Of a DNA stretch of 64,000 nt, positions 23,768 through 25,288 are shown piece after piece. Source of the DNA: Flavobacteriales bacterium (GTDB lineage: Bacteria > Bacteroidota > Bacteroidia > Flavobacteriales > UBA7312); contig JADHMO010000001.1 in the NCBI GenBank assembly GCA_016779995.1, forward strand, positions 283,411-347,410. Direction: 5' to 3'. Under the pieces are notes generated by a model. The model searched no databases, was not told the DNA's origin, and saw only the letters and a program-made list of their open reading frames with translations. A program made the position numbers and the translations under genes. The stretch's first letter is position 1. Each line of letters begins with the position of its first letter.

Positions 23768-24223
23768 ATGAAAATACTCGGAATAAGAAACTCACCTAAG
23801 GTCATACGGTTTTGCATCTTAGATGGAAATGCAACCAGCTTCTCTTTTTCAAATGCAAACGGAGAAAATAAAATAGATCTACCTAAATCCTTGAAGACTG
23901 AAGCTGAAATCTATCAATGGGTTAAAAGTGAATTCAACCGTTTGTTTGATAAATATGGGCCTTTTGACCATATGGCAATAAAGCAAAATGAAAATGTACC
24001 CACTAGGTACAGCAGTGTAAAGCCTGTCATGTTTCTAGATTGTATTGCCTGTCTAGTGGCAATAGACAATAACACGCCTTTTTCGTCTCATTTATACACC
24101 TCATTGGGTACAAAGAGTAAAGAAGTAGTAAAACATATTGAATCACAAGTTTCAAAGAGCAACACCCATTGGGACAGCAAAATGGCTGACGCAGTTGTAG
24201 CAGCAATAAAAAATATACAATAG
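23768..24223 (+). CDS. hypothetical 151-aa protein; by eye a RuvC/RNase H-like fold lacking most catalytic acidic residues
   Basis: The ATG directly abuts the hsdS TAA stop. A by-eye alignment to E. coli RuvC pairs ILGIRNS with ILGIDPG, MAIKQ with AIEQ, and KMADAVVAAI with DAADALAIAI. No signal peptide or transmembrane segment. Confidence 0.35.
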   Translation: MKILGIRNSPKVIRFCILDGNATSFSFSNANGENKIDLPKSLKTEAEIYQWVKSEFNRLFDKYGPFDHMAIKQNENVPTRYSSVKPVMFLDCIACLVAIDNNTPFSSHLYTSLGTKSKEVVKHIESQVSKSNTHWDSKMADAVVAAIKNIQ

Positions 24224-25288
24224 ATGAGTTTTAAAGCAGGAGATAACATATACAAATTCACTCTAATTAAGAAGTTAGGCGGCAATTTTGGTGAGGTTTG
24301 GCATGCGAAAGACAACAGCATTAATAAAGAAATTGCTCTTAAGATTCTTGAACCTGCTTTTGAACCCATTGCCAAATTATTAGACGAAGCGAGGATTGGA
24401 AACAAATTCAATCATCGTAACCTTCTTCCGATTCACTATGCTGATGTGGCATCTGTTGGCCCGAAGACTTACACACTAATTTCTCAAGAGTACTATCCAA
24501 ATGGGGATATCACTAATCAATTGAACACCCACAACTTTTTACCACTACCACAAGTGATGAGTGCTCTTCAAGATATTCTGTTTGGCTTGGAATATCTTCA
24601 TAATAGCGGGTTCTATCATAACGATATAAAGCCTGGTAATATATTGATGGACGATCAACAATCAGCAGTTCTTGCTGATTATGGAATTGCTGGATTTTCT
24701 CCAAGTATTACCCCAGTTACCCCTAAGAACTCGTATAAGGTTCATAGAGCACCTGAAACAAATGGCAGCTCTGCGAAAATCAGTATTCAATCCGACATCT
24801 TTCAGGTTGGCTGCACAGCGTATAGACTACTTAATGGCGTAAGTACTTTAAAAAATGAATTTATCACTCTTGGTGCTTCGGACTATGAAAATAAAAAAGC
24901 GAATGGAAAAATTCCAGATAGAAAATCGTACCAACCATTTGTTCCGAAGAAACTAAAAACCATCATCAACAAAGCGCTGAATGTTAATCCTGGTGACAGA
25001 TTCAATTCAGCCTTAGAGATGAGACGAAAACTAGAAAAACTTCACTTTCCGGGTTATTGGACAGCTGATAAAAAATCGAACCTAATTGGTGTTGGGAAAA
25101 AGTACTTATATCAATTTGTGGTAGTAGCACTACCTAAAGACCTTTTCAATTTCACGGCTACAAAAACCAATCAAAAAACAGGAAAAACAACGAAAATCGG
25201 TCAGTTCACTGTTAAGAAGAAGAGTGAGTTAGAAATGAATAAAATAAGAACTCAATTCATTGAATGGGTTGTAGAAAATGCAAGTTAA
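24224..25288 (+). CDS. Hanks-type (eukaryotic-like) Ser/Thr protein kinase with an ~80-aa C-terminal extension
   Basis: 354 aa. Motifs seen: Gly loop LGGNFGEV, the VAIK-like Lys in IALK (K40), catalytic loop HNDIKPGN (D134, N139), DYG in place of DFG (D152), APE (HRAPE), and DIFQVGC (subdomain IX). Confidence 0.85.
   Translation: MSFKAGDNIYKFTLIKKLGGNFGEVWHAKDNSINKEIALKILEPAFEPIAKLLDEARIGNKFNHRNLLPIHYADVASVGPKTYTLISQEYYPNGDITNQLNTHNFLPLPQVMSALQDILFGLEYLHNSGFYHNDIKPGNILMDDQQSAVLADYGIAGFSPSITPVTPKNSYKVHRAPETNGSSAKISIQSDIFQVGCTAYRLLNGVSTLKNEFITLGASDYENKKANGKIPDRKSYQPFVPKKLKTIINKALNVNPGDRFNSALEMRRKLEKLHFPGYWTADKKSNLIGVGKKYLYQFVVVALPKDLFNFTATKTNQKTGKTTKIGQFTVKKKSELEMNKIRTQFIEWVVENAS

What the first reader, a model, noticed from the sequence alone, without database searches (positions are those of the whole stretch)
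23768..25288. RuvC-like small protein plus Hanks kinase cassette between hsdS and hsdR: candidate undescribed R-M-coupled defence module
Seen in the sequence: two genes sit exactly between hsdS and hsdR of an apparently intact type I system. They use abutting stop/start codons (TAAATG, TAGATG), and the kinase stop lies 1 nt before, or 11 nt inside, the hsdR start. They are therefore co-translated with the restriction complex. The kinase keeps all core catalytic motifs. Established knowledge: this inter-hsd slot is where the abortive-infection anticodon nuclease PrrC sits in the E. coli prr locus, kept latent by the R-M complex and triggered by a phage anti-restriction peptide. Ser/Thr kinases have defence precedents (staphylococcal Stk2 Abi, PglW in Pgl/BREX type 2, and, as I recall, the single-gene kinase system PD-T4-6). 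Inference: the pair could be a guard or backup module that senses infection or inhibition of the type I enzyme and phosphorylates host or phage targets. I know of no characterised system with this two-gene architecture.
Basis: partly seen in the sequence, partly recalled or inferred. Interest (0 to 1): 0.85.

Follow-up and report, generated by a model that had tools for sequence, protein, structure and literature searches.

The report
Dead-RuvC plus kinase defence cassette
Two tightly linked genes inside a type I restriction operon, a RuvC-shaped protein that has lost its nuclease site and an intact Ser/Thr kinase, form a conserved mobile pair found across many bacterial phyla in slots that otherwise hold known anti-phage genes. 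It is therefore a credible, still untested and apparently undescribed candidate defence module.

Summary
ORFs at 23768-24223 (151 aa) and 24224-25288 (354 aa) sit between hsdS and hsdR with abutting or overlapping codons, inside a seven-gene operon (20455-29209).

The small protein has no family match but models confidently as a RuvC fold (TM 0.75-0.80). Three of the four RuvC catalytic carboxylates are replaced family-wide (R7, K72, Q/K138; only D141 kept), so it is probably not a canonical nuclease. The kinase is a Hanks-type, non-RD (HND) enzyme with invariant catalytic residues and a private ~80-aa C-terminal domain with no fold match.

The two genes were adjacent in 44 of 44 genome loci, and three distant kinases all had the small gene upstream. 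About 70% of loci lie between hsdS and hsdR of one type I R-M lineage. Others sit in a type III R-M operon, next to a SIR2-like candidate (PDC-S21), or alone. Sister operons carry Shedu, Abi or DUF3800 genes in the same slot.

Best reading: an autonomous, swappable kinase-based defence cassette, not an obligate guard of the R-M enzyme. Nothing in the defence libraries or the searched papers describes it. Function and mechanism are inferred, not shown.

The parts
20455..21048 (+). Half-size HsdS-like gene (197 aa, one target-recognition domain) upstream of hsdM. It is a hallmark of this R-M lineage.
   Evidence: Methylase_S E 2e-10. Present upstream of hsdM in most related operons, in the Methylocystis parvus plasmid operon that carries the pair, and in three sister operons that lack the pair.
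21054..22625 (+). hsdM, type I methyltransferase subunit (523 aa).
   Evidence: HsdM_N plus N6_Mtase, E 6e-97. PADLOC MTase_I, E 1e-129.
22622..23767 (+). hsdS, full-length specificity subunit (381 aa, two target-recognition domains). It overlaps hsdM by 4 nt.
   Evidence: Methylase_S with two stretches. PADLOC Specificity_I, E 4e-62. Internal 41-nt direct repeat typical of HsdS conserved regions.
23768..24223 (+). Small basic protein (151 aa, pI 9.0) with a RuvC fold but R7/K72/K138/D141 in place of the RuvC tetrad D7/E66/D138/D141. Proposed sensor or regulatory partner of the kinase.
   Evidence: No Pfam, PADLOC or NCBIfam match. AF2 pLDDT 92, pTM 0.88. Foldseek hits RuvC 7xhj and 1hjr with TM 0.78-0.80. 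hhalign against RuvC gives 82% probability and the residue mapping. Family-wide conservation of R7, K72, E75 and D141. About 200 clusters at 50% identity, nearly all full-length members about 150 aa and none fused to a kinase-sized domain.
24224..25288 (+). Hanks-type Ser/Thr kinase (354 aa). Kinase domain is aa 14-261 (nt 24263-25006), with non-RD HND134 and DYG152-154. Private C-terminal beta-rich domain is aa ~275-354 (nt 25046-25285).
   Evidence: Pkinase E 5e-32. Invariant catalytic residues. Nearest solved structures StkP and PknB, E 1.5e-17. C-terminal domain AF2 pLDDT 92.9, with no fold match in PDB or BFVD.
25278..28514 (+). hsdR, type I restriction/translocase subunit (1078 aa, or 1074 aa from ATG 25290).
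   Evidence: HSDR_N, SWI2_SNF2, T1R_D3-like, ResIII and T1RH-like_C. PADLOC REase_I, E 1.5e-218.
28511..29209 (+). YgjP/SprT-like zinc metallopeptidase (232 aa), overlapping the hsdR stop by 4 nt. Conserved last gene of the operon.
   Evidence: YgjP-like E 5e-54. Present after hsdR in most related operons, including those without the pair.

Best explanation
The two genes form a self-contained, horizontally mobile cassette. One gene encodes a RuvC-fold protein whose nuclease site has been replaced by conserved basic residues. The other encodes a catalytically intact, non-RD Hanks-type Ser/Thr kinase with its own small C-terminal domain.

In this window the cassette is cargo in the hsdS-hsdR slot of a particular type I R-M lineage (half-S, HsdM, [slot 1], HsdS, [slot 2], HsdR, SprT/YgjP protease). 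The two slots of that lineage carry interchangeable defence genes.

Most likely it is an anti-phage module of the abortive-infection or kinase-effector type, in the spirit of Stk2.
- The dead-RuvC protein would act as sensor or regulator. It might bind branched or junction DNA made during phage replication and recombination, or it might simply hold the kinase in check.
- Once released or activated, the kinase would phosphorylate host or phage proteins to stop the infection.
- The cassette would act as a second layer beside restriction and would not need the R-M enzyme.

Shown: the gene pair, the fold, the loss of catalytic residues, the intact kinase motifs, the strict co-occurrence and the contexts.
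Inferred: the defence function, the sensor and effector roles, the trigger and the targets.
For: Strict linkage:
- The small gene is followed directly by the kinase in 44 of 44 genome loci from Bacteroidota, Alphaproteobacteria, Acidobacteriota, Chloroflexota, Planctomycetota, Desulfobacterota and others.
- Three distant kinases (45-47% identity) all have an upstream 152-155 aa gene that matches the small-protein HMM at about 1e-47.
- Pairwise identities of the two proteins correlate at r = 0.94, more tightly than either does with HsdR (0.84).
- Stop and start codons abut or overlap here and in many relatives.

Module autonomy:
- The pair also occurs between Mod and Res of a type III R-M operon (L015).
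- It occurs with only a DUF4917/PDC-S21 SIR2-like gene (L018, L020, L027).
- It occurs alone among housekeeping genes or mobile-element genes (L039, L040, L023, L009, L050).
- In L003, L004, L005 and L044 the pair is about 75% identical to the window's while HsdR is only 55%. L011 shows the reverse pattern.

Defence context:
- The same slot in sister operons holds Shedu plus a HAD hydrolase, an Abi family protein, or a DUF3800 protein.
- Slot 1 and the post-kinase position in operons that carry the pair hold CBASS, Fic, RhuM, GIY-YIG/DUF4357, Schlafen-ATPase and PDC-S21 genes.
- The operon is on plasmids and on an integrase-bearing element in the closest relative.
- It is essentially absent from phages.

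Proteins:
- The kinase catalytic residues are invariant.
- R/K at position 7 in 164 of 170 members and K/R at position 72 in 168 of 170 show that the altered RuvC site is itself under selection.
- Both proteins are basic, with pI 9.0 and 9.5.

Precedents:
- The functional logic of embedding is established for TgvAB and PrrC.
- 'Guilt by embedding' gave 7 validated systems out of 9 tested.
Against: - No experiment exists. Defence is inferred from context only.
- The loci were sampled by searching for the small protein, so the fraction embedded in R-M is descriptive and is not an enrichment statistic.
- The kinase target and the trigger are unknown.
- The conserved E55, E75, D91 and D141 could form a non-canonical metal site, so nuclease activity is not strictly excluded. 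I could not inspect the model coordinates.
- About 70% of loci are in the exact hsdS-hsdR slot, often with 4-nt overlaps into hsdR. This still leaves room for a functional tie to the restriction subunit.
- Solitary copies may be decaying remnants rather than working systems. L040 shows a degraded neighbouring gene and L042 a frameshifted operon.
Confidence: 0.5

Rival explanations
1. PrrC-style guard. The pair docks on the HsdMSR complex, is kept silent by it, and fires when a phage anti-restriction protein (Ocr, ArdA or Stp type) disables the enzyme.
For: The pair occupies the same inter-hsd slot as prrC. 31 of 44 loci lie exactly between hsdS and hsdR, often with 4-nt overlaps into hsdR. In L015 it again sits just upstream of the restriction subunit, this time of a type III system.
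Against: - The pair occurs with no R-M genes nearby in roughly a quarter of loci.
- It has been exchanged between diverged HsdR lineages.
- The same slot carries unrelated autonomous systems such as Shedu and Abi, so position alone does not imply physical coupling.
- There is no similarity to PrrC.
Confidence: 0.15
2. Toxin-antitoxin-like pair, with HipBA-type logic but unrelated folds. The kinase is a growth-arresting toxin. The upstream small RuvC-fold protein is its neutralising partner and perhaps a DNA-binding autorepressor. Phage infection, or loss of the element, frees the kinase. The module may also stabilise the R-M island.
For: The architecture is a small upstream gene translationally coupled to a larger enzyme gene. 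Co-occurrence is strict and co-evolution tight. The pair occurs alone on mobile elements and plasmids. A kinase with a non-canonical partner acting in defence is reported for HipAD/DS-6.
Against: The kinase is Hanks-type and not HipA-type. The small protein has no HTH or known antitoxin fold. No toxicity data exist. This rival overlaps the best explanation and differs mainly in how the kinase is controlled.
Confidence: 0.15
3. Regulator of the neighbouring effector. The kinase phosphorylates HsdR (or Res, or the SIR2-like protein), or a transcription factor, to switch restriction on or off. This could serve restriction alleviation after DNA damage. The RuvC-fold protein would report DNA structure, by analogy with the ssDNA-activated CapK-CapS pair that controls immune operons.
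For: The pair lies immediately upstream of the effector gene in type I, type III and PDC-S21 contexts. A kinase-substrate pair that regulates adjacent immune operons in response to DNA damage is documented for CapK/CapS. A SprT/YgjP protease is always coupled to hsdR in this lineage, which hints at post-translational control of HsdR.
Against: Sister operons lack the pair and carry unrelated cargo instead. Solitary copies have no adjacent effector. CapK and CapS belong to different protein families (GHKL-type kinase and STAS domain) and sit upstream of operons, not inside them.
Confidence: 0.1
4. Not defence. It is a passenger signalling kinase with an accessory protein that hitch-hikes in a permissive insertion slot.
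For: There are no functional data. Some copies sit among housekeeping genes.
Against: The distribution is patchy and spans many phyla, and copies sit on plasmids and integrative elements. The pair is repeatedly embedded in R-M operons beside known defence genes. Both proteins are under strong purifying selection.
Confidence: 0.1

Closest known systems
RuvC Holliday-junction resolvase (E. coli 1HJR, D. radiodurans 7XHJ, T. thermophilus 4LD0)
   Same: Same overall fold and size (TM 0.75-0.80, about 150 aa). A profile-profile alignment spans 138 columns. The N-terminal 'ILGI' strand, the 'AI-x-Q' strand and the C-terminal 'ADA' helix motifs are recognisable.
   Different: No sequence-level family match, and a search of 1.84 billion representatives returned only about 200 clusters. 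The catalytic D7, E66 and D138 are replaced by R, K and Q/K across the family. The RuvC 'QVK' segment (K107) is deleted. The protein is always paired with a kinase.
Stk2 of Staphylococcus epidermidis (Hanks kinase abortive infection; from my own knowledge, cited as reference 20 in PMC9519451)
   Same: [quoted passage not shown] This is the model for what the kinase may do.
   Different: Stk2 is a single gene with no RuvC-fold partner and is not embedded in R-M. Any relationship beyond the shared kinase domain was not tested.
PD-T4-6 (single-gene Ser/Thr kinase defence, E. coli; PADLOC models)
   Same: The kinase domain matches many PADLOC PD-T4-6 HMMs (best E 2.6e-36).
   Different: The matches cover only the kinase domain (for example 1-271 of 347 profile positions). 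The same models also call the housekeeping PASTA kinase of S. thermophilus. PD-T4-6 is a single gene, whereas here the partner is obligate.
MADS (mad1-8) and Pgl/BREX type 2 PglW: kinases within methylation-based defence
   Same: A Hanks-type kinase encoded with HsdM/HsdS-like methylation genes. The best PADLOC hit is mad6 (E 4e-42).
   Different: The NCBIfam MAD6 score is 112 against a cut-off of 460. The kinase is about half the length of MAD6. None of the seven operon proteins matched a MAD7 or MAD8 model, and those two are mandatory. PglW matches only weakly (E 3e-7).
PrrC and TgvAB: defence genes embedded in type I R-M operons
   Same: Same genomic logic, with an independent defence function lodged between hsd genes.
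   Different: Unrelated proteins. PrrC depends on its R-M partner, whereas this pair also occurs without R-M.
CapK-CapS and HipAD (kinase plus partner modules in immunity)
   Same: A two-gene kinase-plus-small-partner logic linked to immune operons.
   Different: Different kinase superfamilies (GHKL-type and HipA-type) and different partner folds (STAS; DUF3037/DUF1829).

Membership tests
RuvC resolvase family | RNase H-like fold with RuvC topology | tested here: met
   AF2 model pLDDT 92. Foldseek top 12 hits are all RuvC, TM 0.71-0.80, E 6e-10 to 1e-6.
RuvC resolvase family | Catalytic tetrad D7-E66-D/H138-D141 | tested here: not met
   hhalign maps these positions to R7, K72, K138 and D141. 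Across 170 members, position 7 is R/K in 164, position 72 is K/R in 168, position 138 is mostly Q/K, and position 141 is D/E in 158.
RuvC resolvase family | Sequence match to the family model | tested here: not met
   No Pfam or NCBIfam hit. PHROG 3875 matches at only E 0.012 over aa 1-43. A profile search of PDB sequences finds no RuvC. hhalign gives 82% probability.
RuvC resolvase family | Dimeric, metal-dependent Holliday-junction cleavage | not testable with these tools
   Needs biochemistry.
Hanks-type (eukaryotic-like) Ser/Thr protein kinase | Pkinase domain above the curated threshold | tested here: met
   PF00069 at 111.8 bits against a cut-off of 31.7.
Hanks-type (eukaryotic-like) Ser/Thr protein kinase | Catalytic residues: VAIK Lys, alphaC Glu, HxD Asp, Asn, DFG Asp, APE | tested here: met
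   K40, E55, D134, N139, D152 and A176-P-E178 are invariant in 42 sequences. The Arg of HRD is replaced by Asn (HND), so this is a non-RD kinase. DFG reads DYG.
PD-T4-6 | Match to PD-T4-6 profile HMMs | tested here: inconclusive
   Many hits, best E 2.6e-36, but over the kinase domain only. The models also call a housekeeping PASTA kinase, so they do not discriminate.
PD-T4-6 | Single-gene system | tested here: not met
   The upstream RuvC-fold partner is present in 44 of 44 loci plus 3 of 3 reverse tests.
MADS | MAD6 equivalog score | tested here: not met
   NF047741 at 111.9 bits against a cut-off of 460.
MADS | MAD7 and MAD8 present (mandatory components) | tested here: not met
   None of the seven operon proteins gave a mad7 or mad8 hit in PADLOC.
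PrrC-type R-M guard | Gene embedded between hsd genes of a type I operon | tested here: met
PrrC-type R-M guard | ABC-ATPase plus anticodon-nuclease protein | tested here: not met
   No such domains are present.
PrrC-type R-M guard | Activity depends on, and is silenced by, the R-M complex | not testable with these tools
   Indirect evidence against: the pair occurs without R-M.
Type II toxin-antitoxin (HipBA-like) | Small upstream gene translationally coupled to a toxin-enzyme gene | tested here: met
   TAGATG junction here. Overlapping ORFs in relatives.
Type II toxin-antitoxin (HipBA-like) | HipA-fold kinase and HTH antitoxin | tested here: not met
   The kinase is Hanks-type and the partner has a RuvC fold.
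Type II toxin-antitoxin (HipBA-like) | Toxicity neutralised by the partner | not testable with these tools
   Needs expression experiments.

The most novel reading that the evidence does not exclude
This is a new kind of portable immune sensor-kinase. A nuclease-dead RuvC fold has its former metal site rebuilt with conserved Arg and Lys. It recognises phage replication or recombination junction DNA, or a phosphorylated or anionic ligand, and switches on a non-RD Hanks kinase through the kinase's private C-terminal domain. The two-gene unit plugs into type I and type III R-M operons and next to SIR2-like effectors as an independent layer of immunity.
Probability: 0.3. Interest if true: 0.8.

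Novelty: new variant of a known kind. Interest (0 to 1): 0.62.

Why it matters
Kinase-based anti-phage immunity is known from only a few cases (Stk2, PD-T4-6, PglW, MAD6), and its triggers are poorly understood. This cassette would add a widespread, compact, two-gene example with an unusual partner, a RuvC fold converted into a probable non-catalytic sensor or regulator. That offers a concrete handle on how a bacterial Hanks kinase is switched on during infection.

It also documents one type I R-M lineage (half-S, M, S, R, SprT protease) whose two internal slots act as exchange points for defence cargo: CBASS, Shedu, Abi, Fic, RhuM, PDC-S21 and this pair. This supports 'guilt by embedding' as a discovery route. 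It also gives a natural test bed for asking whether embedded systems cooperate with restriction.

Tried and rejected
- Sequence-level identification of the small protein failed. Pfam, PADLOC and NCBIfam gave nothing meaningful, the PHROG hit was weak, and a PDB profile search found no RuvC.
- The kinase C-terminal domain modelled confidently but had no fold match in PDB or BFVD.
- A phage origin is rejected. There was no tblastn hit in 50,697 phage records. The single IMG/VR hit carries the whole R-M operon.
- MADS membership is rejected.
- PD-T4-6 membership is judged uninformative.
- CapK/CapS and HipAD were considered as the same system and rejected, because the protein families differ.
- The promoter and terminator scan showed nothing above chance.
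- No inverted-repeat shufflon links the half-S gene and hsdS. No tRNA or integrase flanks the island in the window.
- Weak Foldseek hits to Kae1, TsaD and ASKHA domains (E ~3e-3 to 1e-2, TM 0.39-0.47) are treated as generic RNase H-like resemblance, not as a Bud32-Kae1-type relationship.
None of the papers they returned describes a RuvC-fold plus Hanks-kinase pair. Two attempts to open the 2011 'defense islands' paper failed because it is not held.
- I could not run a complex prediction of the two proteins or inspect model coordinates.
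Full report
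**1. Observation**

The window carries seven same-strand ORFs with minimal spacing:
- a half-size HsdS-like gene (20455-21048)
- hsdM (21054-22625)
- hsdS (22622-23767)
- a 151-aa ORF (23768-24223)
- a 354-aa ORF (24224-25288)
- hsdR (25278-28514)
- a YgjP/SprT-like metallopeptidase (28511-29209)

The raw sequence shows TAAATG at the hsdS/small-ORF junction and TAGATG at the small-ORF/kinase junction. The kinase stop lies at 25286-25288, 1 nt before ATG 25290 and 11 nt inside the ORF that starts at ATG 25278. Pfam and PADLOC confirm a complete type I system and a protein kinase domain. The small ORF matches nothing, apart from a marginal PHROG 'RuvC-like' hit over its first 43 residues.

**2. 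The small protein**

Size and isolation of the family:
- A search of the 5.8-billion-protein collection found 77 clusters. Nearly all are 151 aa and all are unnamed.
- An exhaustive profile search of 1.84 billion representatives found about 200 clusters (E <= 1e-3). Nearly all full-length members are about 150 aa and none is long enough to include a fused kinase domain.
- It is therefore a small, sequence-isolated family.

Fold:
- With a 26-sequence alignment, AlphaFold2 gives a confident model (pLDDT 92, pTM 0.88).
- Its best PDB matches are genuine RuvC resolvases from D. radiodurans, T. thermophilus, P. aeruginosa and E. coli (TM 0.75-0.80).

Active site:
- I verified RuvC sequences against the PDB, aligned four of them and compared profiles. 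hhalign gives 82% probability over 138 columns.
- It places R7 on RuvC D7, K72 on E66, K138 on D138 and D141 on D141. The RuvC segment that holds K107 is deleted.
- Across 170 full-length family members, down to 21% identity, position 7 is R/K in 164, position 72 is K/R in 168, position 138 is mostly Q/K, and position 141 is D/E in 158.
- The canonical two-metal site is therefore gone throughout the family, and the replacements are themselves conserved. This points to a new role for the old active-site pocket.
- The protein is basic, with pI 9.0 and a family median of 8.9.
- I could not examine the model coordinates. A non-canonical acidic cluster (E55, E75, D91, D141) cannot be ruled out.

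**3. The kinase**

- The Pkinase domain spans aa 14-261.
- In 42 homologues from several phyla, K40, E55, D134, K136, N139, D152, G154, A176-P-E178, D191 and R259 are invariant.
- The catalytic loop reads HND, so this is a non-RD kinase. DFG reads DYG.
- The nearest solved relatives are StkP and PknB (E 1.5e-17).
- Residues ~275-354 form a confidently modelled domain of six beta strands and one helix (pLDDT 92.9). It has no significant match in the PDB or in BFVD.
- PADLOC's best hits are mad6 and a long list of PD-T4-6 models, all over the kinase domain only.
- The NCBIfam MAD6 score is far below its cut-off, and none of the seven operon proteins matched a MAD7 or MAD8 model, although those are mandatory for MADS.
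- PD-T4-6 models also call the housekeeping PASTA kinase of S. thermophilus, so those hits do not establish membership.

**4. Comparative genomics**

*Co-occurrence.* A scan of one genome per species returned 44 loci that encode the small protein. In every one the kinase follows directly. In the reverse direction, three kinases at 45-47% identity all have an upstream 152-155 aa gene that matches the small-protein HMM at about 1e-47.

*Contexts.*
- Thirty-one of the 44 loci have the pair between hsdS and hsdR of the same operon type (half-S, HsdM, HsdS, pair, HsdR, YgjP). These come from Bacteroidota, Alphaproteobacteria, Acidobacteriota, Chloroflexota and a candidate division, and often show 4-nt overlaps.
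- The remainder are:
  - L015, between a large N6/N4 methylase and a type III restriction enzyme
  - L018, L020 and L027, followed only by a DUF4917 SIR2-like protein that is PADLOC candidate PDC-S21 (E 3e-121). The same gene follows the kinase inside the R-M operon in L013 and L026
  - L040, where only a 142-aa fragment matching PDC-S21 remains downstream
  - solitary pairs beside housekeeping genes (L039, L023, L009)
  - L007, about 3 kb downstream of a separate type I hsdS-hsdR pair
  - L008, whose immediate neighbours match no family
  - L019, where the contig ends just after the kinase and the upstream neighbour is a malic enzyme gene
  - L029, beside a resolvase
  - L033, undetermined because the contig is too short
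- Further loci from the reverse test are L050, beside integrases, IS91 and a TIR protein. L053 lies in an island with GmrSD and other R-M genes.

*Mobility.* The pair is on plasmids in Methylocystis parvus and Novosphingobium, annotated 'hypothetical protein' plus 'serine/threonine-protein kinase'. In the closest relative (about 90% identity) the whole operon sits on an integrase-bearing element at a different chromosomal site. Phage records have none. IMG/VR has one contig, which carries the whole operon.

**5. The slot**

- HsdR proteins about as similar to the window's HsdR (about 45% identity) as those of the pair-carrying alphaproteobacterial operons are common on plasmids.
- In three such sister operons the hsdS-hsdR slot holds a DUF3800 protein, a Shedu nuclease plus a HAD hydrolase, or an Abi family protein. 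The half-S and SprT genes are unchanged.
- In operons that carry the pair, the hsdM-hsdS junction and the post-kinase position hold a CBASS cyclase with a SAVED effector, Fic, RhuM, GIY-YIG/DUF4357, a 1582-aa NOV_C/sacsin-like protein, a Schlafen-ATPase, or PDC-S21.
- The pair is therefore one of several interchangeable defence cargos in this R-M lineage.
- Identity matrices agree. Small protein and kinase correlate at r = 0.94, while each correlates with HsdR at only 0.84. There are also clear discordances: L003, L004, L005 and L044 have the pair at about 75% identity but HsdR at 55%, and L011 shows the reverse.

**6. Interpretation**

The data fit an autonomous two-gene cassette that is frequently, but not necessarily, lodged in R-M operons. 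Published precedents show that embedded genes can be independent defence systems (TgvAB; seven of nine embedded candidates validated) or guards (PrrC).

I favour a kinase-effector defence module controlled by the dead-RuvC partner, either as a sensor of branched DNA or as an inhibitory subunit.
- My confidence that the pair is a defence module at all is about 0.7.
- My confidence in the best explanation as stated is 0.5.
- My confidence in the specific sensor mechanism is about 0.3.

The rivals are a strict PrrC-like guard of the type I enzyme, a TA-like pair, a regulator of the adjacent effector (compare CapK/CapS), and a non-defence passenger. They are listed with their tests.

**7. Novelty**

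- Kinase-based defence and R-M-embedded cargo are both known kinds.
- The obligate RuvC-fold pseudo-enzyme partner and the private C-terminal domain are not in PADLOC v2, Pfam or NCBIfam.
- I rate it a new variant of a known kind. It is of moderate to high interest as a candidate and is unproven functionally.

Noticed in passing
window 20455-21048; also L045 4763-5341, L047 2340-3017, L048 359-988, L049 2269-2955: A half-size, single-TRD HsdS-like gene sits directly upstream of hsdM, in addition to the full-length hsdS. It is present in most related operons, with or without the kinase pair. Its role is unexplained. It could be an alternative or homodimeric specificity subunit, or a regulator.
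   Followed up: partly
window 28511-29209: A YgjP/SprT-like zinc metalloprotease overlaps the hsdR stop by 4 nt and is the conserved last gene of this R-M lineage. SprT-type proteases act on DNA-bound proteins, so it might process stalled HsdR. This is speculation.
   Followed up: partly
L003 4083-6787; L006 5347-6747; L035 5604-6659; L013 5843-6802; L045 6912-7862; L004 2052-6800: The hsdM-hsdS junction of the same operon type is a second cargo slot. It carries CBASS (SAVED effector plus SMODS cyclase), Fic, RhuM, GIY-YIG/DUF4357, or a 1582-aa NOV_C/sacsin-like protein. In the window this slot is empty.
   Followed up: partly
L013 9535-10617, L026 9535-10617, L018 9529-10611, L020 9535-10617, L027 1662-2744, L040 9581-10009 (fragment): A DUF4917 SIR2-like protein (PADLOC candidate PDC-S21) repeatedly follows the kinase, both inside and outside R-M operons. 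It is unclear whether it is a third component or just neighbouring cargo.
   Followed up: partly
L055 539-5051 versus window 18389-20455: In the closest relative (Flavobacteriaceae bacterium KMM 6898) the operon lies after trmE, next to an integrase, HTH_17 and DUF5906 genes, and it has an extra 258-aa gene between hsdS and the small gene. The window copy sits between a BshC-like gene with small lipoprotein-like ORFs and rimO/ftsY. No integrase is seen, and GC is slightly raised (0.37-0.41 against 0.30-0.35).
   Followed up: partly
L042 1032-9931: The operon in a candidate-division FCPU426 MAG is broken into many short ORFs (hsdM, kinase, hsdR). It is either pseudogenised or affected by long-read frameshift errors.
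   Followed up: no
L035 and L036: In some searches these two loci show identical ORF coordinates and identical scores. They are assigned to MAGs of different phyla (Paludibacteraceae and Anaerolineaceae). This suggests a binning artefact or very recent transfer.
   Followed up: no
PADLOC PD-T4-6 models and PMC11514479: PADLOC's PD-T4-6 HMMs match generic Hanks kinase domains, including a housekeeping PASTA kinase present in all S. thermophilus strains. PD-T4-6 calls on kinases should be read with caution.
   Followed up: partly
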